A stretch of DNA of 15,939 nucleotides from a virus. The notes below the pieces were generated by a model. The model was not told the DNA's origin, made no database searches, and saw only the letters and a list, made by a program, of their open reading frames with translations. Positions 1,887 to 15,534 of the stretch are shown here, in pieces (position 1 is the first letter of the stretch; each line of letters begins with the position of its first letter). The stretch spans positions 1-15,939 of IMG/VR virus record IMGVR_UViG_3300037313_000747. The stretch is one strand, 5' to 3'. Made by a program: the position numbers and the translations under genes.

Positions 1887-2987
1887 ATGTCCACCCGGAC
1901 CGCCGCCCTCGCCGTCGACGTCGTCTCCGACGTGAACGACGCTGTGTCCGGGCTCGGCAACGTCGGCGACGCCTCCCGCGGCGCGAGCACCGACGTCGCG
2001 CGGATGGGTCGCGAGGCCGAGGAGTCCGCCCGCCGGCTGAACATCACCGCCGATTCGGCCGACGAGCTGGGCGGCAAGGCCGGCAAGGCGACCGGCGCGC
2101 TCGGCGCGCTCTCCTCCGGTTTCGAGCTGCTCGGTCCCAAGGGCGCGGCCGCTGCGACCGGCCTCCAGTCGGCGGCGCTCGCCACCGATTTTTTCTCCGG
2201 TGTCGGCGACTCGCTGAACCTGGTCATGGAATCGACCATCGTCAAGACCACGCTGGCGAAAGCCGCGGCCGTCGGGCACGGGATCGCGACCAAGGCGTCC
2301 GCGGCCGCGACTGGGATCATGACCGGCGCACAGTGGGCGCTGAACGCCGCCATGTCGGCGAACCCGATCGTGCTGATTGTGATCGGCCTCGCCGCCCTCG
2401 CCGCCGGCATGGTCCTCGCCTACAAGAAATCCGAGACGGTCCGCACCATCCTGAAGGCCGTAGGGCGCGCCGGACAGGAGTCGGTCGGCTGGATCGTGGA
2501 CAGGGTCCGCGACCTGACCGGCTGGTTCCGCGACAAGCTGCCCGGCGGGCTCCGCGGCGCGCAGACCGCGGCCTCGGTCGCGTTCGCCGTCATGACCGCC
2601 GGACCGCGGACCCTCATCGCCGTTGTCACGCACGCGGACGACGCGGTCAGGAAGCTGCCCGCGGCATTCGAGTCGGCCAAGCGCAAGGCCGGCGCGATCG
2701 CCGGCGCTCTGACCAAGCCGTTCCGGGACCTGTGGAACCTGGTTGACGACATCGTCGACAAAATCGACGACATCGATATCCCGAGCCTGGGCGACCTCAA
2801 CCCGTTCGCCCGGACCGCCGGCTCAACCTCCGGTTTCGTCAGCGGTCGGACCGTCGTCGAGGTTCAGGGCGGACCGACGTACAACTACACGTTCAACCTT
2901 AACGGGCTGCTGACCGACGACGAGGCAGCCGACTTCATCCGCGAGCTGCTCGACCGGCGCGCCCGTCAGCTCGGGCTGGCCGCATGA
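1887..2987 (+). CDS. Tape measure protein, unusually short (366 aa)
   Basis: Ala/Gly-rich helical protein with a central hydrophobic segment (NPIVLIVIGLAALAAGMVLAY). Position is after the chaperone and before the tail-tip genes. ATGA overlap with the next gene. Confidence 0.8.
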   Translation: MSTRTAALAVDVVSDVNDAVSGLGNVGDASRGASTDVARMGREAEESARRLNITADSADELGGKAGKATGALGALSSGFELLGPKGAAAATGLQSAALATDFFSGVGDSLNLVMESTIVKTTLAKAAAVGHGIATKASAAATGIMTGAQWALNAAMSANPIVLIVIGLAALAAGMVLAYKKSETVRTILKAVGRAGQESVGWIVDRVRDLTGWFRDKLPGGLRGAQTAASVAFAVMTAGPRTLIAVVTHADDAVRKLPAAFESAKRKAGAIAGALTKPFRDLWNLVDDIVDKIDDIDIPSLGDLNPFARTAGSTSGFVSGRTVVEVQGGPTYNYTFNLNGLLTDDEAADFIRELLDRRARQLGLAA

Positions 2988-4854: not shown

Positions 4855-5166
4855 ATGGAGGCTCTCGGGTGGGCGGCAGCCGCGGCCGCGGGCATCGCCG
4901 GATTCATCTACCTCGCGCGCGTCGTGCTCTACATCGCCCGATCGATCGAGGCCGTCCGGCACCTGGTCCAGCGCGAGCTGGAGCACAACCACGGGTCATC
5001 GATGAAGGACGACGTTCACGGCATGGCGGTCGCGATCGGCCAGCTACAGCGCGACCGCGACGACGACCGCCGGCGGCTCAGTCGAGCCCTACGGCTGGCA
5101 GCCAAGCACCACCCGGAGGACGCCTGGCTCTACCTCGACAGCCCCGACGAAAGGAAACCTAGATGA
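4855..5166 (+). CDS. Membrane protein with one N-terminal TM helix (103 aa), possibly DUF2746-like; lysis-cassette associated
   Basis: N-terminal hydrophobic segment WAAAAAAGIAGFIYLARVVLYIA, then an ELEHNHGSSMKDDV motif reminiscent of an actinophage membrane-protein family. ATGA overlap with the amidase gene. Confidence 0.55.
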   Translation: MEALGWAAAAAAGIAGFIYLARVVLYIARSIEAVRHLVQRELEHNHGSSMKDDVHGMAVAIGQLQRDRDDDRRRLSRALRLAAKHHPEDAWLYLDSPDERKPR

Positions 5167-5825
5167 CCGCCACGTTCCCGCCGCCCAGTCCGGTGCGGAT
5201 CCTCACCGACAAGCACGGCGGTCCGCAGACCCCGACGCTGGTGGTCATGCACGCCACCGTCAGCCCGACCCGCGCCGGCATGGCGCGCGCGATCGCGCGC
5301 ATGTTCCGCGACTCCGACCGGGACAGCTCGGCGCATTACGTCGTCGACGAGGCCGAGGTTATCCAGTGCGTCGGCGATCACCGGATCGCCTGGCACTGCG
5401 GTTACAACGCCGACTCGCTCGCGATCGAGATGTGCTTTATGCCGCTGCTCGACTCGCTGCGAAACTGGCTGCTCCCCGCCGACCAGCGCACCGGCGACAA
5501 GGTCGGCACGCACGCCCGGATCATCCCGCTTCGCTGGCTCCAGCCGGCTCCGCGGCGCATGTTCCGGCGCTCGGTGAACTTGGCCGGCGACCTGTGTCTG
5601 TCCTACGGCATTCGGCCGCGCTACATCGGCGTCCGGAAGGTGCGCGCCTGGGACGCTGCCGGCCGGCCGGCGGCGCTGGGCGGGATCACGACGCATGCGG
5701 TCATGACGAAGGCGTTCCGCCGATCGACGCACTGGGACCCCGGCGCGTGGCCTCGACGCCTGTTCATCCGCCGTGTCCGCCGGCACGTCGAGGCCCGTCG
5801 GGCTGCTGTCGAGGCCGCGGCATGA
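5163..5825 (+). CDS. Endolysin, N-acetylmuramoyl-L-alanine amidase (Amidase_2/PGRP-type), 220 aa
   Basis: Motifs VVMHAT..., SAHYVVDE..., IAWHCGYNADSLAIEM and ...GITTHAVMT...STHWDPG fit the zinc amidase_2 pattern. It is flanked by membrane-protein genes. Confidence 0.8.
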   Translation: MTATFPPPSPVRILTDKHGGPQTPTLVVMHATVSPTRAGMARAIARMFRDSDRDSSAHYVVDEAEVIQCVGDHRIAWHCGYNADSLAIEMCFMPLLDSLRNWLLPADQRTGDKVGTHARIIPLRWLQPAPRRMFRRSVNLAGDLCLSYGIRPRYIGVRKVRAWDAAGRPAALGGITTHAVMTKAFRRSTHWDPGAWPRRLFIRRVRRHVEARRAAVEAAA

Positions 5826-6043: not shown

Positions 6044-6222
6044 CACTCCGGGACCATGTAGAACGGCTGCCGGTGAGGCTGGTCCTCATCGGCAGCCGCT
6101 TGCTTGTCCAGCGCCGGGTATGCGAGCACGACCAGGACCGCGCCGAGCTTGCAGAACGACCACGCCCAATCGAGCAGGAAGTCCCGCCGCGACCGCGCCG
6201 CCGGCACCGGCCCGAGCCTCAT
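5884..6222 (-). CDS. Questionable ORF translationally coupled to the int stop (112 aa; basic N-terminus plus one TM helix)
   Basis: ATG at 6222 overlaps the int stop (ATGA). The first ~40 codons (6099-6222) have nearly all G/C third positions in a stretch no other gene covers, and encode RSRRDFLLDWAWSFCKLGAVLVVLAYPAL. However, the ORF runs through the terminator hairpin and 160 nt antisense into the holin gene. Confidence 0.25.
   Translation of the reverse strand: MRLGPVPAARSRRDFLLDWAWSFCKLGAVLVVLAYPALDKQAAADEDQPHRQPFYMVPECQPPWSCPDPSGPLSPTFISTAIRPAMPDADSAPVQSVSIRPVPAAVSTPARV
6064..6098. terminator. Strong hairpin between the convergent lysis and integrase transcription units (candidate bidirectional intrinsic terminator)
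   Basis: 6064-6078 pairs with 6084-6098 (15 bp, one G-U on the plus-strand RNA, 5-nt loop CTGGT), followed by CTTGCTTGT on the plus strand. It lies 21 nt after the holin stop. Confidence 0.6.
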
Positions 6223-7127
6223 GCGACGAGGGTCGCCGCGCGCGCGGCCGAACGGATCGCATCGTCGGGCATCGCCACGTACCGCTGTGTCGTCTCCGGT
6301 CTGGAGTGGCCGAGCAGCGCGCCGACGGCGAGCAGATCGCGGGTCGCGGCATAGGCCACCGAGGCGCACCGATGCCGCAATGTGTGCGCCGTCCAGCCGT
6401 CCGGCAACGCGCGGGACAGCAGCCGCGAGACGTGGCCCGGTGTCAGGTGCGACCCGTGGCCGTTCGGGAACGCCCAGCCGTCGAGGAGCTGGAGCCGCGC
6501 GAGGAGCCGGCCGTCGACGACCGGCACCGCGCGCACCTTGCCGCCCTTGCCGTGCACGACCAGCTCGTCGCCGACCAGGTCGCGCGCGTGCACGCGGGCA
6601 ATCTCGGCGGCGCGGAGCCCGCCGAACGCGGCAAGCATGCCCATCAGCCCGATTCGCGGGTCCGGGTCCGCGAGGAGCTGGCGCACGACGTGCTCGGGTG
6701 CCGGTCGCGGCCGGCCGGCCGGCACCCGCACCGAGTCCAGCCGCGCCGATGGGTCGTCATCGATATGCCCGGCTCCGTGCGCCCAGCGGTAGAAGCTACG
6801 CACCGCCGAGCGCGCTGACTTGCGTGTCTCCGGTGCCCAGTGCTCGGCGGCGAGGAAGGCTTGCAGGTCAGCGGTCTGCACCGCGCACGGGTCCGGATGC
6901 AGGTCGCGCAGCCGGGCCAGATAGTGGCGGTGTAGCCGGATAGTGCCGGGCGAGCGTCCCGCCGCCCTCATCGCCTGGTCATAGAGCACCAGCATTGCCG
7001 CCCAAGCGAACGGCGCTGCGGCGAGTCCCGAGCTGATCGCTGCACGCATGGGCGCAGGGTACGCGCCAGTCTCGTATTTCGCACGAAAAGTCCGAATATC
7101 GACGACCGGCCGACCGCGGCTGCTCAC
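6219..7127 (-). CDS. int: Tyrosine integrase / XerC-D-like site-specific recombinase (302 aa from GTG 7127; alternative ATG at 7049)
   Basis: C-terminal catalytic block ...HTLRHRCASVAYAATRDLLAVGALLGHSRPETTQRYV (H-x-x-R ... H ... Y) and an upstream ...GGLRAAEIARV... Arg box. The GTGA overlap with the repressor stop argues for the 7127 start. The protein ends ...AARAATLVA. Confidence 0.9.
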   Translation of the reverse strand: MSSRGRPVVDIRTFRAKYETGAYPAPMRAAISSGLAAAPFAWAAMLVLYDQAMRAAGRSPGTIRLHRHYLARLRDLHPDPCAVQTADLQAFLAAEHWAPETRKSARSAVRSFYRWAHGAGHIDDDPSARLDSVRVPAGRPRPAPEHVVRQLLADPDPRIGLMGMLAAFGGLRAAEIARVHARDLVGDELVVHGKGGKVRAVPVVDGRLLARLQLLDGWAFPNGHGSHLTPGHVSRLLSRALPDGWTAHTLRHRCASVAYAATRDLLAVGALLGHSRPETTQRYVAMPDDAIRSAARAATLVA

Positions 7128-7459
7128 GCCGCCGGCCTGACCAGCGCGAACGGATAACCGGAGGGTTGTTGGTTCGAGTCCAACCGGGGGAGCGGAGCAC
7201 CGTCAGGTGCCGGACCATCGTCCGGCACCTGACCCGTCTCTAGCCACTCCAGCGGGACTCCTGTCCGCAGTGCCCACAGTCGCAGGGTTGACTTCCTCGG
7301 ATTGATCCGTCCCGACAACCACGTCGAGACGGCCTCCCGACGGACCCCGAGATATTCCGCCATGTCGCCGGCGCTCACACCGCTGATTCGCAGCGCGCGC
7401 CGCATCCGGTCGGGCATGTCGAACTCCAGCCGCGACCAGTCCATCGCTTGGTGACTCAT
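7124..7459 (-). CDS. XRE/Cro-CI-type helix-turn-helix repressor (111 aa), virion-form with C-terminal extension
   Basis: HTH segment VSAGDMAEYLGVRREAVSTWLSG. It is divergent from the early operon and sits directly upstream of, and overlapping, int. Residues 90-102 (LPRLDSNQQPSGY) are the antisense reading of the tRNA-like segment. The protein ends ...FALVRPAA. Confidence 0.8.
   Translation of the reverse strand: MSHQAMDWSRLEFDMPDRMRRALRISGVSAGDMAEYLGVRREAVSTWLSGRINPRKSTLRLWALRTGVPLEWLETGQVPDDGPAPDGAPLPRLDSNQQPSGYPFALVRPAA
7155..7192 (+). other. tRNA 3-prime-half mimic: putative attP common core
   Basis: Perfect T-arm GTTGG-TTCGAGT-CCAAC (7168-7184), then a 7-nt acceptor strand CGGGGGA and G (7185-7192). 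It is preceded by a 5-nt variable-loop-like and a 5-nt anticodon-stem-like segment. No matching 5-prime half (D-arm, 5-prime acceptor, paired anticodon stem) exists upstream, so it is a fragment and not a gene. Confidence 0.65.
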
Positions 7460-8100: not shown

Positions 8101-8192
8101 TGCGCGCTATCGAGCTGCTCTGTGCCCTTGCCCTGGTCGCCTGGTTCGGCGGCTTTGGCGTCGTCCTCCTACTGATTGCGACTAAGCCATGA
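8100..8192 (+). CDS. 30-codon hydrophobic micro-ORF (MRAIELLCALALVAWFGGFGVVLLLIATKP)
   Basis: ATG 8100 overlaps the WhiB stop (TGATG), and its stop overlaps the next ATG (ATGA). It forms a single predicted TM helix. In frame with the tail of track ORF 7731-8192. Confidence 0.45.
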   Translation: MRAIELLCALALVAWFGGFGVVLLLIATKP

Positions 8193-8917
8193 CCGAAACG
8201 CTGCGCGGTGGAACGTGGAACATGGAGCGCGATCGCGACCCCGAGGTCGCTGCGCGCGAGGCGTTCCGGATCATCGACGATCACAACCTCGACTTCCTCT
8301 GCATTCAGGAGTGCTCGCACTACCTCAAGGCGTTGCGCATGGAGTCGCGCGCCGGTCGCGACGACGGCGGGACGCATGACCTGATCGCGTTCAACTTCGA
8401 GCCCGGCCGCGCCGAGTCGGCGATCCTCGTCCGCCGCACGCTGACCCACGGCAAGGGTTACCAGGTGCGCGCCACTCGCGCCGGCTGGATCACCGTCCGG
8501 GGCGGCACGACACCGCCGAAGTACCTGACGACGGTCCTCCTCGACGGCTGGTTGCGGGTCGTGTGCCTACACACCGCGCCCTCGGTCCGCTGGCGGCAAG
8601 GTCGCATCGTCGGACCGATCCGGCGCGTTGTCTCGATGCGCCAGCTCACACGCGCGGTTGTCCGACTCGCTCGACGTCGTCCCGAACACCCGTTGTTCAT
8701 CGCCGGCGACTGGAACGCCACACCGGACACGCGCGGCCGCTGGTCCCCGCACTGGGTAGGCCGCATGATCGGCGGCAGGGTCATCGCCCCGAAGCTCGGC
8801 ACGCACGGCCGGCGAACGATCGACTTCGCCGTAATCCGCGGCTGTGGCGCGAAGGCAACTCGCGCTGAGTCGTACGGCTCCGATCACCGGGCGGTCGTGT
8901 TCAAGGTGACCCGGTGA
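8189..8917 (+). CDS. Endonuclease/exonuclease/phosphatase (EEP, DNase I-like fold) family protein (242 aa)
   Basis: Ordered EEP motifs are all present: GTWNMER, DFLCIQE, IAGDWNATPD, TIDFAV, GSDHRAV. Confidence 0.75.
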   Translation: MTETLRGGTWNMERDRDPEVAAREAFRIIDDHNLDFLCIQECSHYLKALRMESRAGRDDGGTHDLIAFNFEPGRAESAILVRRTLTHGKGYQVRATRAGWITVRGGTTPPKYLTTVLLDGWLRVVCLHTAPSVRWRQGRIVGPIRRVVSMRQLTRAVVRLARRRPEHPLFIAGDWNATPDTRGRWSPHWVGRMIGGRVIAPKLGTHGRRTIDFAVIRGCGAKATRAESYGSDHRAVVFKVTR

Positions 8918-10476: not shown

Positions 10477-10850
10477 CCGCGACCGAACCCGACCCGCTGC
10501 CGCTGCCCGGTCTGGAGGACGGCGTCGACAGCCGCCGAGCCGTGACCGATCTGGAGTCGGCCGTGCGGCGCACGATCGCCGCGCACCAGGAGCTGGATCA
10601 CCTGACCGAAGTCGACGCCGGCAAGTGCGCGATTGCGATCGAGCTGTGTCAGGTCGCCGCCCGCAAGCGCGCCGGCGGGCGCATGTCCACGATCAGCAAC
10701 GACCTGCGGCTACTCCAGGAGATTCTGGATTCGCTCACCCCGGACGCCGACACCGACGTCGACGCGAAGCTCCGCGCGGCCATGGCGGAGTGGTCCGAGG
10801 AGGTGTCGAATGCAGCCGATGCCAGCGCCGAAGTTCGCGACACCCCGTGA
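10473..10850 (+). CDS. terS: Terminase small subunit (125 aa)
   Basis: Position directly upstream of, and overlapping, terL. Acidic helical protein. GGAGG at 10459-10463. The call is mainly positional. Confidence 0.55.
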   Translation: MTATEPDPLPLPGLEDGVDSRRAVTDLESAVRRTIAAHQELDHLTEVDAGKCAIAIELCQVAARKRAGGRMSTISNDLRLLQEILDSLTPDADTDVDAKLRAAMAEWSEEVSNAADASAEVRDTP

Positions 10851-12219
10851 CCTGTCGCGGCCGACGCTCGGCGAGCGGCAAGGGAAGTTCGCGCGGGTCT
10901 GGCTCGGGCAGCCGTTCATGCCCTGGCAGCAGCTTGTGGCCGACGTCGCCGGCGAGCTGCGCCCCGACGGCCTGCCGGTGTACCCGTTGGTCGTGGTCAC
11001 CGTGCAGCGACAGGCCGGCAAGTCGCACCTGGCGATGGCGCAGACCGGAGAGCGGTCGTTCAGCCGGGCCAAGTTCCGGTCTTGGTACACCGCGCAGACC
11101 GGCGGCGACGCGCGCGACCAGTTCCTGAAGTTCGACGAGGAGGTCGTGCAGGGCACGGCGCTGGAGGCGGTCGTCCGAACCCTGCGCGGCAACGGCCACG
11201 AGGTCATGAAGTGGCCGAACGGCTCGCAGCTCCGACCGCACCCGCCGACGGAGACGGCGCTGCACGGCAAGCAGTCCGACCGCAACGACATAGACGAGGG
11301 TTGGGCATTCTCCGAGGACGAGGGCAAGCTGCTGTTGCAGGCGATCAGCCCGACGCAGCTAACCCGCCGCGGCGCGCAGACGTTCATCTGGTCGGCCGGC
11401 GGCACCGCGGCCTCGACCTGGCTCGCCGCGCTGGTGGCTCGCGGCCGCGCCGGTGATCCGAGCATGGCCTATTTCGAGTGGGGCATCCCGGACGAGGCCG
11501 ATCCCGAGGACCTCGACGTGATCGCCGCGCACCATCCCGCATTCGGCCACCTGGTCACCATGGAGTCGCTCAAGGCGATGCGGGCACAGTTCGGCGATGA
11601 CGTCGCCGGCTGGGCGCGCGCCGCGGGTAACCGCTGGACCGAAGTCCTGGGCGGCGCGATCCGGCTCGGCGAGTGGGAGGCCGTCCGGTACGCCGACGCG
11701 ATCCCGGACGGCGCGCCGGTCGGCTACGGTGCGGCGCGGTCCGCGGACGGCTCTCAGGTCGTGGTCGCGGCCGCGGCCGAGGTCGACGGCCGGATCGTGG
11801 CCGAGGTCCTCGACGTGCTGCCGGTGTTCGGCGCGGCCTCGTCGGTCCGCGACTGGATCGCCGGCGGTGCGCTCGCCGTCGACCCGTCCGGCCCGTCGGC
11901 GTCGCTGGCCGACGAGCTGGAGCGGCTCGGTGCGCGCATGGTGCCGATGCGCTCGCGCGACGCCGCGGCCGCGACCTCGAATCTGCTCGACGGCATCGCC
12001 GCACGGGCGTACCTGTTCCGGCAACACGTCGCCCTCGACGCCGCGGTGAAGGTCGCCGGCACCCGCGCAATCGGCGACGGCGGCAAGACGCTGGCCCGTG
12101 TCGCGGCCGGCGCGCCGATCGCCGCGCTGGAGGCGTGCCGAGAGGCAGCCTGGGCCGTCACGCACCGCCCGCGCGAGCTTGGCAAGCCCGTTGTTCGGTT
12201 CGGACAGGAGGTCGCCTGA
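10810..12219 (+). CDS. terL: Terminase large subunit (469 aa)
   Basis: Start is ATG 10810 (GAGGAGG at 10796-10802), in frame with track ORF 10633-12219, giving a 41-nt overlap with terS. Walker A-like VQRQAGKS, Walker B-like DRNDIDEGW, and a C-terminal nuclease-sized domain. Confidence 0.85.
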   Translation: MQPMPAPKFATPRDLSRPTLGERQGKFARVWLGQPFMPWQQLVADVAGELRPDGLPVYPLVVVTVQRQAGKSHLAMAQTGERSFSRAKFRSWYTAQTGGDARDQFLKFDEEVVQGTALEAVVRTLRGNGHEVMKWPNGSQLRPHPPTETALHGKQSDRNDIDEGWAFSEDEGKLLLQAISPTQLTRRGAQTFIWSAGGTAASTWLAALVARGRAGDPSMAYFEWGIPDEADPEDLDVIAAHHPAFGHLVTMESLKAMRAQFGDDVAGWARAAGNRWTEVLGGAIRLGEWEAVRYADAIPDGAPVGYGAARSADGSQVVVAAAAEVDGRIVAEVLDVLPVFGAASSVRDWIAGGALAVDPSGPSASLADELERLGARMVPMRSRDAAAATSNLLDGIAARAYLFRQHVALDAAVKVAGTRAIGDGGKTLARVAAGAPIAALEACREAAWAVTHRPRELGKPVVRFGQEVA

Positions 12220-12410
12220 TGTTCCGGTTTGACCGCACACAACGCTCCGTCGTTGTCATCTGCACCCGGTGCGGCGCGCGGGACGTGTTCACCGATCCCG
12301 CGCCCGCGGAGACGTGGGCAGCGCTGCACCTGCGCGACGCGCACCCCGCGCCGACACCGGAGCGCAAGGCCGCGCTGACCGCCGGCAGGGTCCGCGACCA
12401 CCGTCGCTAA
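12219..12410 (+). CDS. Small hypothetical protein (63 aa) between terminase and portal
   Basis: ATG 12219 overlaps the terL stop (TGATG), with GGAGG at 12207-12211. Contains CTRCG. In frame with the tail of track ORF 11673-12410. Confidence 0.45.
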   Translation: MFRFDRTQRSVVVICTRCGARDVFTDPAPAETWAALHLRDAHPAPTPERKAALTAGRVRDHRR

Positions 12411-12468: not shown

Positions 12469-13521
12469 GTGGGTCTATTCACCGCTCTCCGGATGCGCCG
12501 GCAGCTCGCCGAGGTACAGGCATCGTTCCCGCCGCTCGATCCGTCCTCCTACCCGATCGCGACCCCCTGGGGCAGCTCGGACCTGAGCCGCTGGGTCTGG
12601 TCGGACATCCTCGGTGCCGACGTGCCGAGCAACAGCCGCGCCGCCGCGATGCGGCTGCCGGCGCTGGCGCGCGGCCGGAACCTGATCGTGTCGTCCATCG
12701 CCGGCCAGCCGATGCGGCTGCTCACCGGCGAGACGGTCGAGGCCGAGCAGCCCTCATGGTTGACGCAGACCGGCGACGGCTCCAGCCCGCAGATCCGCAA
12801 CGGCTGGACCGTCGACGACCTGATCTTCTACGGCTGGTCGTGCTGGTCGCGGCACTTCGACGGCGACGAGTGGGTCGCCGCGTCGCGGATCAACTATGGC
12901 GACTGGGTCATCAACGCCGACATGCAAGTCGAGGTCAACGGCGTGCCGGTCGACCCGGAGTCCGTCGTCGTGATCCCCGGTCTGCATGAGGGCATCCTCA
13001 CGTTCGGCGCGGAGACGATCGACGACGTCCGCACCCTGTACCGCAACGTCCGCGCCCGGCTGCTGAACCCGGTTCCGGGAATCGACCTGCACCAGACCGG
13101 CGGCGACCAGCTCACCGACCCCGAGATTGACGCACTGATCGCCCGGTGGGCGGCAGCCCGGCAGGGCACCAACGCCGGCGTCTCCTACACCAACGAAGTG
13201 ATCGAGGCCAAGCCGCTGACCGGCGGCGACGAACAACTCATGATCGAGGCGCGCAACGCAGCCGCGGTCGACCTGGCCCGACTCATCGGCGTGCACGCCG
13301 GCATCGTCGACGCGACCGCCCCGAAGGCGTCGCTGAACTACGAGACCACGACCGGGCGCAACCAAGAGTTCGTGGACTTCGACCTGGCGCTCTACATGAC
13401 GCCGATCACCGCGCGCCTGTCCCTCGACGACTGCACCGAGCCCGGCCAGCGCGTCGACTTCGACCTGTCCAACCTGACCGCGCCGGCACCCTCGCCGACC
13501 GGCCCGAATCTGGAGGACTGA
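12469..13521 (+). CDS. Portal protein (350 aa)
   Basis: Position after terL and before the protease-capsid gene. Size and composition fit small HK97-type portals. GTG start with GAAGG at 12456-12460. The start codon is uncertain (ATG 12493 is an alternative). Confidence 0.75.
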   Translation: MGLFTALRMRRQLAEVQASFPPLDPSSYPIATPWGSSDLSRWVWSDILGADVPSNSRAAAMRLPALARGRNLIVSSIAGQPMRLLTGETVEAEQPSWLTQTGDGSSPQIRNGWTVDDLIFYGWSCWSRHFDGDEWVAASRINYGDWVINADMQVEVNGVPVDPESVVVIPGLHEGILTFGAETIDDVRTLYRNVRARLLNPVPGIDLHQTGGDQLTDPEIDALIARWAAARQGTNAGVSYTNEVIEAKPLTGGDEQLMIEARNAAAVDLARLIGVHAGIVDATAPKASLNYETTTGRNQEFVDFDLALYMTPITARLSLDDCTEPGQRVDFDLSNLTAPAPSPTGPNLED

Positions 13522-13525
13522 CCCG

Positions 13526-15166
13526 GTGCGCCTCAACCTGACCGCCAGCAACGTCCGCGTCGACACCGCACGGCGAACCATTTTCGGAACCCTGTTCCGC
13601 TACGGCGAGGCCGGCCACACCGACGCCGGTGTCCTGGCCGTCGACGACCCCGGCGCGATCATCGTCCCCGCCGACGCCTCCGAGGTCACCCTCGTCCGCG
13701 AGCACGACCAGACCGCGGTACGCGGCCGGCTGGCGATGTGGGACGACAACGGCGAGCGCGTCTATGTCGCGATCCGCGTCGACGACGGCCCCGACGGAGA
13801 TGCCGCGCTGGCCGAGGCTGCCAGCCGCAAGCGCGCCGGCCTCTCGTTCGGACTGCGCGACGCCGACGTCGTCGACCCGCCCGCCGGCGACCGCCGCGGC
13901 CTCGACGGCGTCATCGTGCGCGCCCACCTGGGCCACATCGGACAGGTTGCCGACCCCGCTTTCAACTCAGCCCGCGTCGACCAGATCGCGGCATCAAGGA
14001 CCGCCGGTGCGAGCCGGACGAACACAGAAGGAGACAACATGACCCCGGAGCAGCGGGCACGGCTCGCCGAGCTGATCGCCCAGCAGAACCTGACCGACGA
14101 GGAGCGCACCGAGCTGGACCAGCTCACCGCGCTTGCCGTGACCGAGGCGACCGCGACCGAGGAGGAGCCGCCCGCCGAGGAGGACCAGCCGCCGGCCGAC
14201 CAGCCGGCCTCCCAGCAGGTCGCCGCGGCCCGGCGTACGCCGGCCGTACCGCGTGGCGTGCCGGCCCCGCGGGTCGAGGTCCGCGACCGTCGCGAGGGCA
14301 GTGCCCTGCGGCGCATGTACGCCGATCTGACCGCCGCGCTCCAGCCGGACCGGCGCAACCTCTCCGCGGTGACCGCGGCGCTGTCCGACGTCACCAACAC
14401 CGCCAACCCGGCGGTCGAGGCCCCGGCCTGGTCCGGTGAGCTGTGGTCCGGGCTCCAGTACCAGCCGAAGTGGACCGGCCTGTTCACCCCCGGCACGCTG
14501 ACGAGCTGGGAAGGGTCCGGCTGGCGCTGGACCACCAAGCCGGCCATGGCCGACTACGCCGGCGACAAGGCCGCGATTCCGTCGGCCGCGATCGCGACCG
14601 AGCCGTCGACGTACGAGGCCGCGCGCATGGCTTGCGGTCACGACATCGACCGGAAATTCTACGACTTCCCGAACCAGGAGTTCCTGGCCTCCTACGCCGA
14701 GGCGGCGCGCGAGGACTGGGCGGTCAAGCTCGACGAGAAGGTCCGCGCCTACGTGCTCGCGCAGGCGGTCGCCTTCCCGACCGTCGACCCCGACACCAAC
14801 TCGCTCCTCAAGGCGGCGGCGCTGGCGGCGTTCGGCGTCGAGGACAACACGAAGGCGAAGGCGACCTTCCTCGCGGTCAACCGGACCGACTTCCTCGGTC
14901 TGCTCGACATGACCAACGATCAGGCTCCGGCCTTCCTCGACATGTTCGGGATCAAGCCGGAGAACTTCGTTGTGGACACCACGATCCCCGCCGGGACCGT
15001 GATCGCCGGTGTCCGGCAGGCCGCGACCGTGCGGACCCTGCCCGGCTCGCCGATCCGCGTCGACGCCCAGCACATCGCCAACGGCGGCGTCGACACGGCG
15101 TTTTTCGGTTACTGGGCGATCGAGGAGCACCACACGTCCGGCATCGTCAAGGCCACCTTCGCCTGA
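13526..15166 (+). CDS. Fused prohead protease - scaffold-like linker - HK97-fold major capsid protein (546 aa)
   Basis: GTG 13526 with GGAGGA at 13512-17. The N-terminal ~155 aa carry S78/HK97-protease-like motifs (LVREHD with His60, GLSFG with Ser107, VADPAFNSARV). Residues ~172-260 are helical and acidic (EQRARLAELIAQQNLTDEERTELDQL, EEEPPAEEDQPPADQ). The C-terminal ~285 aa are capsid-like. No stop codon separates the parts. An internal in-frame ATG at 14039 is preceded by GAAGGAG. Confidence 0.8.
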   Translation: MRLNLTASNVRVDTARRTIFGTLFRYGEAGHTDAGVLAVDDPGAIIVPADASEVTLVREHDQTAVRGRLAMWDDNGERVYVAIRVDDGPDGDAALAEAASRKRAGLSFGLRDADVVDPPAGDRRGLDGVIVRAHLGHIGQVADPAFNSARVDQIAASRTAGASRTNTEGDNMTPEQRARLAELIAQQNLTDEERTELDQLTALAVTEATATEEEPPAEEDQPPADQPASQQVAAARRTPAVPRGVPAPRVEVRDRREGSALRRMYADLTAALQPDRRNLSAVTAALSDVTNTANPAVEAPAWSGELWSGLQYQPKWTGLFTPGTLTSWEGSGWRWTTKPAMADYAGDKAAIPSAAIATEPSTYEAARMACGHDIDRKFYDFPNQEFLASYAEAAREDWAVKLDEKVRAYVLAQAVAFPTVDPDTNSLLKAAALAAFGVEDNTKAKATFLAVNRTDFLGLLDMTNDQAPAFLDMFGIKPENFVVDTTIPAGTVIAGVRQAATVRTLPGSPIRVDAQHIANGGVDTAFFGYWAIEEHHTSGIVKATFA

Positions 15167-15534
15167 TGCCTCTCCCCGCCACCGGCCCGGCCTCCAGGAG
15201 CGCTGTCAAGGCGCTCCTGGGGGTCGCGGACGCAGACGTTTCTCAGGACGAGCTGGTCGACCGCTACGTCGCGGTCGCGAACAACATCGTCACTGAGCTG
15301 CCGATCGCGCAGCGTGCCAACACCGACCCGGCCCCGGCCGACTGGTCGGCTCCGGAGTTCGCGCGCATCGTCGAGGGCGCGAACATGCTCGGCGCACGCC
15401 TCTACGTCCGCAAGGACTCAGCCGAAGGCGTCGCCGCGACGGCGGTCGCCGCGGCCGTCTACGTCCAGCGCAACGACCCCGACATCGCGCAGATGCTCCT
15501 GATCGGTGCCTACCAGAAACCGGCCGTGGGATGA
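15166..15534 (+). CDS. Head-to-tail adaptor (gp6-like head-tail connector), 122 aa
   Basis: ATG 15166 overlaps the capsid stop (TGATG), in frame with the tail of track ORF 14443-15534. Position immediately after the capsid gene. LLGV...DELVDRYVAVANNIV... resembles gp6-like connector N-termini. Confidence 0.6.
   Translation: MPLPATGPASRSAVKALLGVADADVSQDELVDRYVAVANNIVTELPIAQRANTDPAPADWSAPEFARIVEGANMLGARLYVRKDSAEGVAATAVAAAVYVQRNDPDIAQMLLIGAYQKPAVG

What the first reader, a model, noticed from the sequence alone, without database searches (positions are those of the whole stretch)
13526..15166. Protease, scaffold-like linker and major capsid protein in one frame, with a strong internal ribosome-binding site
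No stop codon separates an HK97-type prohead protease domain (His60/Ser107 motifs) from the capsid domain. In frame at 14039, GAAGGAG-N5-ATG is one of the best SD/start combinations in the genome. It would give a 375-aa product (scaffold-like helical segment plus capsid) nested in the 546-aa fusion. That would set the stoichiometry, with a few protease-capsid fusions co-assembling with many capsid-only subunits so that the protease is built into the shell. Protease-capsid fusions are annotated in some very small actinophages, but nested dual initiation as the dosing mechanism is my inference.
Basis: partly seen in the sequence, partly recalled or inferred. Interest (0 to 1): 0.65.

Follow-up and report, generated by a model that had tools for sequence, protein, structure and literature searches.

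The report
Capsid gene nested inside protease-capsid fusion
A small phage encodes its head-maturation protease, scaffold and capsid protein as one reading frame, and a start signal conserved across many related and unrelated phages suggests that the scaffold-capsid part is also made on its own, although no protein data yet show this.

Summary
ORF 13526-15166 (546 aa) has no internal stop. GAAGGAG-N5-ATG at 14027-14041 is in frame and would give a 375-aa product.

The fusion itself is already known: phrog_2263, annotated "major capsid and protease fusion protein" in small actinophages.

In this window alone the motif is no more than chance (1 match, 1.36 expected). The comparative evidence is strong:
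- 90 of 90 family members have a start-capable codon at this column (87 Met; the 3 Val are all GTG).
- 27 of 27 DNA-checked relatives carry an SD 5-10 nt upstream.
- GC3 falls to 0.12 and 0.25 at codons -4 and -3, against about 0.9 in the rest of the ORF.
- Gly codons there are GGA in 24 of 26 cases, against about 7% in the ORFs.
- The site lies exactly where a disordered linker ends and a confident helical hairpin begins.
- Sequence-unrelated fusions (Microbacterium EE, Arthrobacter AM, Microbacterium EL, Lactococcus Q54) have the same feature.

Best reading: a nested gene pair. The full-length product is the protease, tethered to a capsid subunit. The internal product is equivalent to HK97 gp5 (delta domain plus capsid). 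This is a new variant of the lambda C/Nu3 and herpesvirus UL26/UL26.5 scheme.

Expression and the ratio of the two products are inferred, not shown.

The parts
12469..13521 (+). Portal gene. Its stop codon (TGA 13519-13521) lies 4 nt before the fusion ORF start.
   Evidence: phrog_12 portal, E 7e-15. Relatives have the same portal-then-fusion order, with 1-5 nt between the portal stop and the fusion start.
13512..13528 (+). Initiation region of the full-length product: GGAGGA (13512-13517), 8 nt, then GTG (13526-13528). It is embedded in the end of the portal gene.
   Evidence: -9.3 kcal/mol. The GTG aligns with the Met of relatives that start 'MR(L/I/V)T..'. Predicted unpaired probability is 0.32.
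13526..15166 (+). Full-length ORF of 546 aa (58.6 kDa): protease, scaffold-like segment and capsid protein, with no internal stop.
   Evidence: phrog_2263 covers residues 4-545, E 9e-70. More than 180 homologs were found. A search with the 375-aa scaffold-capsid part found 604 clusters at 50% identity.
13553..13975 (+). Folded prohead protease domain (about aa 10-150), with His60 (13703-13705) and Ser107 (13844-13846).
   Evidence: AF2 pLDDT above 90. H60 and S107 are invariant. Pfam S78 hits in 11 of 28 relatives. hhalign to HK97 gp4. Foldseek hit to an HK97-family proheadase, E 4.5e-11, TM 0.72.
13982..14032 (+). Disordered inter-domain linker (aa 153-169). Its 3' end overlaps the internal ribosome-binding site.
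   Evidence: pLDDT below 50. Sequence and length vary in the family alignment.
14027..14041 (+). Internal initiation region: GAAGGAG (14027-14033), ACAAC, then ATG (14039-14041, Met172).
   Evidence: Conserved in 27 of 27 DNA-checked relatives. GC3 dips at codons -4 and -3. Predicted unpaired probability 0.86, with SD and AUG in a 27-nt loop of the MFE fold.
14039..15166 (+). Nested ORF of 375 aa (40.5 kDa): scaffold-like (delta-like) segment plus capsid domain. Similar in size and layout to HK97 gp5 (385 aa).
   Evidence: On short contigs, gene callers independently start the gene at this Met (P0020, P0029, P0123, P0125, P0133).
14045..14155 (+). Helical hairpin (aa 174-185 and 191-210) carrying the conserved motif M-T-x-E-Q-R-A-R-L-A-E-L. 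This is the candidate scaffold or delta-like element.
   Evidence: AF2 pLDDT 94-97. M172, Q176, R179, L180 and L183 are at least 90% conserved.
14156..14296 (+). Pro/Ala/Glu-rich disordered spacer (about aa 211-257) between the hairpin and the capsid fold.
   Evidence: pLDDT below 50.
14297..15163 (+). HK97-fold major capsid domain (about aa 258-546).
   Evidence: Best Foldseek PDB matches are phage D3 and HK97 gp5 capsids, E 4e-12, TM 0.61-0.65 normalised to the target.
15166..15534 (+). Head-tail connector gene. Its start overlaps the capsid stop (TGATG).
   Evidence: phrog_5938, E 9e-18.

Best explanation
**What it is.** The locus is a nested pair of in-frame, C-terminally coterminal genes in a roughly 15.9-kb temperate siphovirus.

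**The two products (inferred).**
- Ribosomes that start at GTG 13526 make a 58.6-kDa protease-scaffold-capsid polyprotein. This start is probably coupled to termination of the portal gene.
- Ribosomes that start at the exposed GAAGGAG-N5-ATG at 14039 make a 40.5-kDa scaffold-capsid protein. This product is equivalent to HK97 gp5 (delta domain plus capsid).

**Assembly model (inferred).** The two forms share the whole assembly-competent part, so they co-assemble into one procapsid lattice. The full-length copies place an S78 serine protease (His60/Ser107) inside the shell. The covalent link replaces the C-terminal targeting tail of a free protease. The protease then removes itself and all scaffold segments, leaving the roughly 31-kDa capsid domain.

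**Shown here:**
- the domain architecture;
- conservation of the internal start and SD, and selection on them;
- the position of the start exactly at a domain boundary.

**Inferred:** that both starts are used, the ratio of the products, co-assembly, and the cleavage sites.
For: **1. Conserved start codon.** Met172 is conserved in 87 of 90 homologs although it lies in a variable linker. The three exceptions have Val encoded by GTG, each with an SD upstream.

**2. Conserved SD.**
- All 24 ATG relatives (42-67% identity) have an AGGAG/GGAAGGA-type SD 5-10 nt upstream, -6.4 to -10.3 kcal/mol.
- The site ranks 1st to 3rd among 11-32 in-frame start codons in each ORF.
- Elsewhere in the same ORFs an in-frame ATG with such an SD occurs at 10 of 12,552 codons.

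**3. Synonymous-site signature.**
- GC3 is 0.12 and 0.25 (A3 0.88 and 0.75) at codons -4 and -3, against about 0.9 baseline.
- Gly codons in the 7 upstream codons are GGA in 24 of 26 cases, against 76 of 1040 ORF-wide.

**4. SD strength.** The internal SD is about as strong as the median called gene start in 9 whole relatives, or stronger. In the window it ranks 7th of 569.

**5. Accessibility.** The internal site is predicted to be more open than the full-length start: 0.64 against 0.46, Wilcoxon p = 0.0024, n = 13. In the window the values are 0.86 against 0.32.

**6. Domain boundary.** Residues 153-169 are disordered and a confident helix starts at 174. The internal product matches HK97 gp5 in length and layout.

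**7. Recurrence in distant and unrelated fusions.** An SD plus ATG lies directly after the protease domain in each of these:
- Decurro (M160), Adaia (M162), Penoan (M160), RRH1 (M274);
- Root (M178);
- GMA5 (M265), Coeur (M307);
- BurtonThePup (M166), Circum (M165), Camille (M171);
- Lactococcus Q54 (M144).

**8. Precedent.** Nested protease/scaffold genes are described for lambda, HSV-1 and the archaeal virus HFTV1, the last by Ribo-seq and mass spectrometry (bioRxiv 10.64898/2026.09.13.751334).

**9. Processing precedent.** Cleavage at the scaffold/capsid junction of a protease-scaffold-capsid fusion was observed by cryo-EM in Nocturne116 (PMC13595954).
Against: - There are no expression data of any kind for this phage or its relatives.
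- In the window alone the motif is no more than chance.
- SD energies do not consistently favour the internal start: it is stronger in 8 of 13 relatives.
- A synonymous-recoding test on duplex energy was not decisive (p from 0.01 to 0.94). Peptides such as E-G and G-E/D encode GAGG or GGAG whatever the codon.
- The 60-nt window around the internal start in this phage is not unusually unstructured (rank 196 of 495).
- Some fusion lineages lack a convincing internal site: Gordonia Emperor and SallySpecial, loci L018 and L021, and weak sites in Idaho, Yavru and Berka. A single-product route must therefore be viable for some phages.
- The papers read present these genes as single fused genes. For PAJU2 (as cited in the Nocturne116 genome paper) and Nocturne116 they propose processing by the fused protease.
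Confidence: 0.7

Rival explanations
1. Single polyprotein. Every capsid subunit is made as the 546-aa fusion from GTG 13526. Each copy carries its own protease, which cleaves itself and the scaffold off after assembly. The internal SD/ATG is not used for initiation.
For: - This is the implicit model in the literature for 'capsid polyproteins' and 'major capsid and protease fusion proteins'.
- In Nocturne116 only the cleaved capsid domain is seen in virions.
- Some lineages (Emperor, SallySpecial, L018/L021) have no good internal start.
- The full-length start has a good SD of its own.
Against: This model does not explain:
- the 90 of 90 start-capable codons, including the three Met-to-Val(GTG) substitutions;
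- the A-rich third positions held against 92% GC3 exactly at SD distance;
- the GGA glycine codons;
- recurrence of the feature in unrelated fusions.
Confidence: 0.15
2. Evolutionary relic. The SD and ATG are left over from the start of a formerly separate capsid gene (as in HK97 gp4/gp5), after the protease stop codon was lost. They no longer function.
For: - HK97 has the protease and capsid genes adjacent, 2 nt apart. Loss of one stop codon would produce exactly this layout.
- The internal product equals HK97 gp5 in layout.
Against: - A non-functional A-rich patch should have been erased in genomes with 92% GC3. Instead it persists at 42-67% protein identity and in lineages with about 30% identity or none detectable.
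- No naturally split relatives were found. Short 'capsid-only' gene calls come from truncated contigs; three of the four that have 90%-identity cluster mates belong to the wider set of short calls, and all four mates are full length. Five of the nine are singletons.
Confidence: 0.05
3. The SD-like element is a translational pause site. It slows elongating ribosomes between domains so that the protease domain can fold before the scaffold and capsid emerge.
For: - The motif sits precisely at a domain boundary.
- Internal SD-like sequences have been proposed to pause ribosomes. This rests on general knowledge and the effect is disputed.
Against: - A pause site needs no start codon at fixed spacing. 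Yet ATG or GTG follows at 5-10 nt in 27 of 27 relatives.
- Met is replaced only by GTG-encoded Val.
- Gene finders independently call this position as a start.
Confidence: 0.05

Closest known systems
Nested protease/scaffold genes: lambda C/Nu3, HSV-1 UL26/UL26.5, Haloferax virus HFTV1 gp17/gp17.5
   Same: - An in-frame internal start inside the protease ORF gives a shorter, C-terminally coterminal assembly protein.
- The protease is carried into the procapsid because it shares the assembly-competent C-terminal part.
- The internal product is more abundant than the full-length one. This was measured for HFTV1.
   Different: - In those systems the shared part is only a scaffold, and the capsid protein is a separate gene.
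- Here the shared part is the scaffold plus the major capsid protein itself, so the protease would be tethered to a lattice subunit.
- Use of the internal start here is inferred from conservation and has not been measured.
HK97 gp4 (S78 prohead protease) plus gp5 (delta domain fused to the capsid protein)
   Same: - The protease family is the same, with the His/Ser dyad aligned to H65/S114.
- The capsid fold is the same; HK97 is among the best PDB matches.
- A helical N-terminal segment precedes the capsid domain.
- The gene order portal-protease-capsid is the same.
- The internal 375-aa product mirrors gp5 (385 aa).
   Different: - In HK97 the two genes are separated by a stop codon, and the protease uses its own C-terminal tail for targeting.
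- Here there is no stop, and the protease domain is shorter (about 150 aa folded, against 225 aa for gp4).
- There is no detectable sequence similarity to HK97 gp5.
'Major capsid and protease fusion protein' of small actinobacteriophages (phrog_2263; Arthrobacter AN/FE, Gordonia CW/DM, Rhodococcus RRH1; analogous fusions in Microbacterium EE)
   Same: - The window protein is a full-length member: phrog_2263 E 9e-70, and 31-35% identity to Adaia, Decurro and Penoan.
   Different: - The window belongs to a large uncultured branch: more than 180 homologs on contigs of about 15 kb, plus genomic (likely prophage) copies in Nocardioides and Aeromicrobium, with no close isolate.
- The published descriptions I read treat the gene as one product and do not mention an internal start.
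Capsid polyproteins of Lactococcus phage Nocturne116 (ORF18) and Pseudomonas phage PAJU2
   Same: - The order protease-scaffold-capsid in one ORF is the same.
- Cleavage at the scaffold/capsid junction was observed in Nocturne116 virions, between Arg242 and Ser243.
   Different: - They are unrelated in sequence and infect different host phyla.
- Those papers propose autocatalytic processing of a single precursor.
- The related phage Q54 nevertheless has AGAGGAAAA-N5-ATG at codon 144, right after its protease domain.

Membership tests
Small-actinophage protease-capsid fusion (phrog_2263) | Full-length sequence match to the family profile | tested here: met
   phrog_2263 covers residues 4-545 of 546, E 8.7e-70. 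tblastn finds 86 phage records annotated as fusion proteins.
Small-actinophage protease-capsid fusion (phrog_2263) | One ORF directly after the portal gene, with no separate protease, scaffold or capsid gene, in a siphovirus genome of about 15-17 kb | tested here: met
   The order is terminase 10810-12219, portal 12469-13521, fusion 13526-15166, connector 15166-15534. The window is 15,939 bp.
Peptidase S78 (HK97 gp4-type prohead protease, Pfam PF04586) | Match to the Pfam model | tested here: inconclusive
   The window protein itself has no Pfam hit at E <= 1. However, 11 of 28 aligned homologs of the N-terminal domain hit PF04586, best E 4.1e-11.
Peptidase S78 (HK97 gp4-type prohead protease, Pfam PF04586) | Catalytic His and Ser conserved and in register with HK97 gp4 His65 and Ser114 | tested here: met
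   H60 and S107 are invariant in 90 and in 28 sequences. hhalign pairs H60 with H65 and S107 with S114. The profile-to-single-sequence probability is only 30%.
Peptidase S78 (HK97 gp4-type prohead protease, Pfam PF04586) | Protease fold | tested here: met
   The AF2 domain at residues 10-150 has pLDDT above 90. Foldseek against BFVD hits 'Proheadase_HK97' A0A6J5R0C3, E 4.5e-11, TM 0.72, 153 columns, 27% identity. This compares one predicted model with another, not with a solved structure.
Peptidase S78 (HK97 gp4-type prohead protease, Pfam PF04586) | Proteolytic activity on the capsid precursor | not testable with these tools
   This needs biochemistry.
HK97-fold major capsid protein with N-terminal delta (scaffold) domain | HK97 fold of the C-terminal domain | tested here: met
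   Best Foldseek PDB matches are D3 and HK97 capsids, E 3.7e-12 to 1e-9, TM 0.6-0.65 normalised to the target. There is no sequence-level PDB hit.
HK97-fold major capsid protein with N-terminal delta (scaffold) domain | Helical N-terminal segment that is removed on maturation | tested here: inconclusive
   Helices 174-185 and 191-210 are predicted with pLDDT 94-97. Removal was not tested. It is seen in the analogous Nocturne116 fusion.
Nested protease/scaffold gene pair (lambda C/Nu3 type) | In-frame internal initiation site inside the protease ORF, giving coterminal products | tested here: met
   The sequence features are present and under selection. Actual initiation was not measured.
Nested protease/scaffold gene pair (lambda C/Nu3 type) | The internal product is a scaffold only, and the capsid protein is encoded separately | tested here: not met
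   The internal product contains the major capsid domain, and there is no other capsid gene in the window. The locus therefore works like this family but is a distinct variant.
Nested protease/scaffold gene pair (lambda C/Nu3 type) | The internal product is made in excess over the full-length product | not testable with these tools
   There are only indirect hints. The internal site is predicted to be more accessible. SD strengths are not consistently different.

The most novel reading that the evidence does not exclude
Internal initiation at the protease/scaffold boundary may be a general, selected property of protease-scaffold-capsid 'polyprotein' genes across unrelated phage lineages. Candidates are the small actinophages, Microbacterium EE and EL, Arthrobacter AM, and Lactococcus Q54-like phages.

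If so:
- the annotated 'fusion protein' is really the minor species;
- the major capsid protein is an unannotated nested gene;
- the protease is delivered by being built into the lattice as an occasional subunit;
- copy number is set by the ratio of two initiation events.

Lineages that lost the helical scaffold hairpin (Gordonia DM, L018/L021) also lack the internal start. They may represent a genuinely different, all-fusion assembly route.
Probability: 0.5. Interest if true: 0.7.

Novelty: new variant of a known kind. Interest (0 to 1): 0.6.

Why it matters
**Annotation.** If the internal start is used, hundreds of phage genomes lack an annotation for their most abundant virion protein. The search with the scaffold-capsid part found 604 clusters at 50% identity, and there are more than 80 cultured actinophages. 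The literature model of a self-cleaving single polyprotein would need revising.

**Biology.** This would extend the nested protease/scaffold principle, known from lambda, herpesviruses and an archaeal virus, to a case where the capsid protein itself is the nested product. That gives a minimal-genome solution to two problems. One is getting a few proteases inside a shell. The other is setting their number without a separate gene or targeting signal.

**Testability.** Arthrobacter, Gordonia and Microbacterium phages that carry the same feature are in culture, so the idea can be tested directly.

Tried and rejected
1. AF2 of the N-terminal 171 aa without an alignment gave pLDDT 35 and was unusable. 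The aligned full-length model was used instead.
2. A profile search of the whole family against PDB sequences gave only low-complexity noise.
3. Pfam on the window protein gave no hit. Relatives were needed.
4. Synonymous recoding of the 7 upstream codons, scored by SD duplex energy, was not discriminating, because E-G and G-D/E peptides encode SD-like strings in any codon. It was replaced by GC3/A3 and Gly-codon counts.
5. The local 60-nt MFE around 14039 is ordinary in this window (rank 196 of 495). The 101-nt fold is no more stable than shuffles (z = 0.18). In that fold the SD and AUG lie in a predicted 27-nt loop.
6. No sigma-70-like promoter was found inside or near the ORF, so a separate capsid mRNA is neither supported nor excluded.
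7. I looked for naturally split relatives with a stop codon between protease and capsid.
   - The nine representatives of about 366-398 aa all come from contigs of 1.4-11.9 kb.
   - All four of these that have 90%-identity cluster mates have full-length ones.
   - They are therefore most likely gene-caller choices on truncated contigs and give no evidence of split genes.
8. The RRH1 paper (PMC3255915) is not held.
9. megablast of the whole window against the phage collection gave no match.
10. SD strength of the internal start against the full-length start shows no consistent difference.
Full report
**Observation**

The window contains ORF 13526..15166 on the plus strand. It starts with GTG and encodes 546 aa with no internal stop. 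GAAGGAG lies at 14027-14033, followed by ACAAC and ATG at 14039-14041. That ATG is 171 codons downstream and in frame, so a nested product would be 375 aa (40.5 kDa) against 58.6 kDa for the full length.

Predicted pairing of the internal SD to a canonical 16S 3' end is -9.7 kcal/mol. I assumed that 3' end to be CACCUCCUUUC, because the host is unknown. The value ranks 7th of 569 candidate starts on both strands. It is among the four best plus-strand ATGs with gene-like codon bias, so the description "one of the best" holds.

Taken alone, however, the motif is not remarkable. GAAGGAG is expected 1.36 times by chance in this window and occurs once. AGGAG is common because GAG codons are common. 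The full-length GTG also has a good SD (GGAGGA, -9.3 kcal/mol) and sits 4 nt after the portal stop codon.

**Context**

The window is a complete, circularly permuted genome of a temperate siphovirus, about 15.9 kb and 70% G+C. Its genes are:

| Coordinates | Gene |
|---|---|
| 1887-2987 | tape-measure-like protein, only 366 aa |
| 5163-5825 | amidase |
| 6219-7127 (-) | integrase |
| 7124-7459 (-) | CI-like repressor |
| 10810-12219 | large terminase |
| 12469-13521 | portal |
| 13526-15166 | protease-scaffold-capsid fusion |
| 15166-15534 | head-tail connector |

There is no separate protease, scaffold or capsid gene. No close relative exists among sequenced isolates. More than 180 homologs occur on metagenomic contigs of about 15 kb and in the genomes (likely as prophages) of Nocardioides and Aeromicrobium. 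The host is therefore probably a member of the Nocardioidaceae; this is an inference.

**Domain architecture**

PHROG family phrog_2263 ("major head protein") covers residues 4-545 (E 9e-70). The 86 phage records found by tblastn are annotated "major capsid and protease fusion protein". The fusion is therefore a known family. It has been described as a common feature of very small actinophages (PMC5513430 and PMC7302621).

An AlphaFold model built on 90 homologs (mean pLDDT 79) shows these segments:
- residues 10-150: a folded beta-rich domain, pLDDT above 90;
- residues 153-169: disorder;
- residues 174-185 and 191-210: a helical hairpin, pLDDT 94-97;
- residues 211-256: disorder;
- from about residue 258: a capsid domain.

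The best PDB matches of the capsid domain are the D3 and HK97 capsids (E 4e-12).

The N-terminal domain of the window protein does not hit Pfam by itself. Three other lines of evidence identify it:
- 11 of 28 aligned homologs hit Peptidase_S78 (best E 4e-11).
- H60 and S107 are invariant and align with the catalytic His65 and Ser114 of HK97 gp4.
- The model matches a predicted HK97-family proheadase with TM 0.72.

**Is the internal start real? Evidence within the family**

- *The start codon.* Met172 is at least 90% conserved although the surrounding linker varies in sequence and length. In the 90-sequence alignment the column holds 87 Met and 3 Val. All three Val codons are GTG, each preceded by an SD-like string. 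Every member therefore has a start-capable codon at this position.
- *The SD.* DNA was obtained for 24 non-identical relatives with Met (42-67% identity). All have AGGAG, GGAAGGA, AAGGAG or a similar string 5-10 nt upstream, at -6.4 to -10.3 kcal/mol. The site ranks 1st to 3rd among the 11-32 in-frame ATG/GTG/TTG codons of each ORF.
- *Background rate.* Elsewhere in the same ORFs an in-frame ATG with such an SD occurs at 10 of 12,552 codons.
- *Synonymous sites.* Mean GC3 is about 0.9 along the ORFs. It drops to 0.12 and 0.25 (A3 0.88 and 0.75) at codons -4 and -3, exactly the SD position. Glycine codons in the seven upstream codons are GGA in 24 of 26 cases, against 76 of 1040 ORF-wide. Amino-acid constraint cannot explain A-rich third positions held against this strong GC bias.
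- *Comparison with real gene starts.* In nine complete relatives the internal SD is about as strong as the median called gene start, or stronger.
- *Gene callers.* On short contigs where the upstream part is cut off, gene callers chose this Met as the start at least five times (P0020, P0029, P0123, P0125, P0133).

**Evidence beyond the family**

An ATG with an SD lies directly after the protease domain in distant homologs and in fusions that tblastn does not connect to this family:

| Phage | Internal Met | SD pairing (kcal/mol) |
|---|---|---|
| Arthrobacter Decurro | 160 | -7.5 |
| Arthrobacter Adaia | 162 | -8.7 |
| Arthrobacter Atraxa | 165 | -6.4 |
| Curtobacterium Penoan | 160 | -8.7 |
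| Curtobacterium Root | 178 | -8.7 |
| Rhodococcus RRH1 | 274 | -8.2 |
| Gordonia McGonagall | 276 | -6.6 |
| Gordonia GMA5 | 265 | -10.3 |
| Gordonia Coeur | 307 | -7.4 |
| Microbacterium BurtonThePup (cluster EE) | 166 | -8.5 |
| Arthrobacter Circum (AM) | 165 | -8.8 |
| Microbacterium Camille (EL) | 171 | -11.4 |
| Lactococcus Q54 | 144 | -6.3 |

In BurtonThePup this is the only ATG with an SD in the ORF.

The pattern has exceptions.
- In Corgi, BlueFeather and the metagenomic loci L030-L034, the candidate site lies later in the linker.
- It is weak in Idaho, Yavru and Berka.
- It is absent in Gordonia Emperor and SallySpecial and in L018/L021. These also lack the helical hairpin.

**Mechanism**

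The most likely reading is a nested gene pair.

The full-length product is an S78 protease covalently tethered to a scaffold-capsid subunit. Its start abuts the portal stop codon in all relatives, which suggests translational coupling to a low-copy protein.

The internal product has the layout and size of HK97 gp5: 375 against 385 aa, with a helical N-terminal segment followed by the HK97 fold.

Both forms share every assembly interface, so they should co-assemble, and the protease domains would end up inside the shell. After assembly the protease would remove itself and the scaffold segments. Cryo-EM of Nocturne116 shows such processing directly: the mature capsid protein begins at residue 243 of a protease-scaffold-capsid ORF (PMC13595954).

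On the ratio of the two products the evidence is thin. SD energies do not consistently favour the internal site; it is stronger in 8 of 13 relatives. The internal initiation region is predicted to be more accessible: mean unpaired probability 0.64 against 0.46, Wilcoxon p = 0.0024, and 0.86 against 0.32 in the window. In the window the full-length start is GTG and the internal one ATG.

Steps shown here:
- the architecture;
- conservation of the site and selection on it;
- its position at a domain boundary.

Steps inferred:
- use of both starts;
- excess of the short form;
- co-assembly;
- the cleavage sites.

**Rival explanations**

1. *Single self-cleaving polyprotein.* This is the model implied in the literature I read. 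It is viable for lineages without the site. It leaves the start-codon column, the SD and the synonymous-site signature unexplained.
2. *Relic of a lost gene boundary.* This explains the origin, since HK97 gp4 and gp5 are 2 nt apart. It does not explain persistence against GC pressure across lineages.
3. *Elongation pause site.* This needs no start codon at fixed spacing.

**Comparison with what is known, and novelty**

Two things are already known:
- The fusion itself.
- Nested in-frame initiation inside protease genes, described for lambda C/Nu3 and HSV-1 UL26/UL26.5, and shown by Ribo-seq and mass spectrometry for HFTV1 gp17/gp17.5 (bioRxiv 10.64898/2026.09.13.751334).

In those systems the nested product is a scaffold and the capsid protein is a separate gene. 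Here the nested product would be the major capsid protein with its own scaffold segment. Six full-text searches and the papers I read on these phages gave no description of an internal start in protease-capsid fusions. The held library is incomplete, so this is absence of evidence only.

I rate the finding a new variant of a known kind. The comparative support is strong, and experimental confirmation is missing.

Noticed in passing
window 15188-15226: A hairpin with 16-nt arms (88% complementary, 7-nt loop) lies 22 nt after the capsid stop codon, inside the 5' end of the connector gene. HK97 has an annotated putative terminator at the same relative place after gp5. It could be a partial terminator or an mRNA-stabilising element that raises capsid expression relative to downstream genes.
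   Followed up: partly
window 8189-8917 (+): A 242-aa protein of the Endonuclease/Exonuclease/phosphatase family (PF03372, E 4e-13) lies in the early region of a 15.9-kb phage that otherwise has almost no enzymes.
   Followed up: no
window 1887-2987 (+): The only tape-measure-like gene encodes just 366 aa. It also matches an endolysin PHROG (phrog_971), which suggests a very short tail or a tape-measure/lysin hybrid.
   Followed up: no
window 6219-7459 (-): A tyrosine integrase (302 aa) and a CI-like HTH repressor (111 aa) are present, so the phage is temperate. Some relatives (L047, L050, L054) show no integrase in their gene calls.
   Followed up: partly
proteins P0045 and P0114 (relatives, 776-777 aa): A NUDIX hydrolase domain (PF00293) is fused N-terminal to the protease-scaffold-capsid ORF. 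These members keep the internal 'G-G-I-M-T-E-E-Q-R-Q-R-L-A-E-L' start motif. A NUDIX enzyme might thus be delivered into procapsids by the same tether.
   Followed up: no
proteins P0054 and P0045 (relatives): An insertion rich in T/A/G/S, roughly 60-70 aa in P0054 and longer in P0045, lies inside the capsid domain. It may be a surface decoration domain. It is absent from the window protein.
   Followed up: no
L062 (RRH1) 822-2807; L063 (Emperor) 945-2804; L064 (McGonagall) 870-2843: The Gordonia and Rhodococcus fusions carry about 100-120 extra N-terminal residues with hydrophobic, transmembrane-like stretches ahead of the protease. Emperor has a strong SD plus ATG at codon 121, just before the protease domain. 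PMC9671378 proposed a holin-capsid fusion for the related phage it calls EpicDab (the record is named EricDab). A third nested start may exist there.
   Followed up: partly
L063 (Emperor), L074 (SallySpecial), L018, L021: These fusions have only a Pro/Ala-rich linker, with no predicted helical hairpin, and they also lack an internal SD plus ATG. Presence of the scaffold helix and of the internal start may be linked. The sample is small.
   Followed up: partly
phage record OR067381.1 ('Pseudomonas phage Hadban', 16,449 bp): Its hit coordinates and identity are almost the same as for Arthrobacter phage Adaia (3243-4754 in both). The Pseudomonas host label looks doubtful.
   Followed up: no
window 12219-12410 (+): A 63-aa ORF between terminase and portal has the second-best SD in the window (-11.9 kcal/mol). 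It is conserved as phrog_7332, of unknown function.
   Followed up: no
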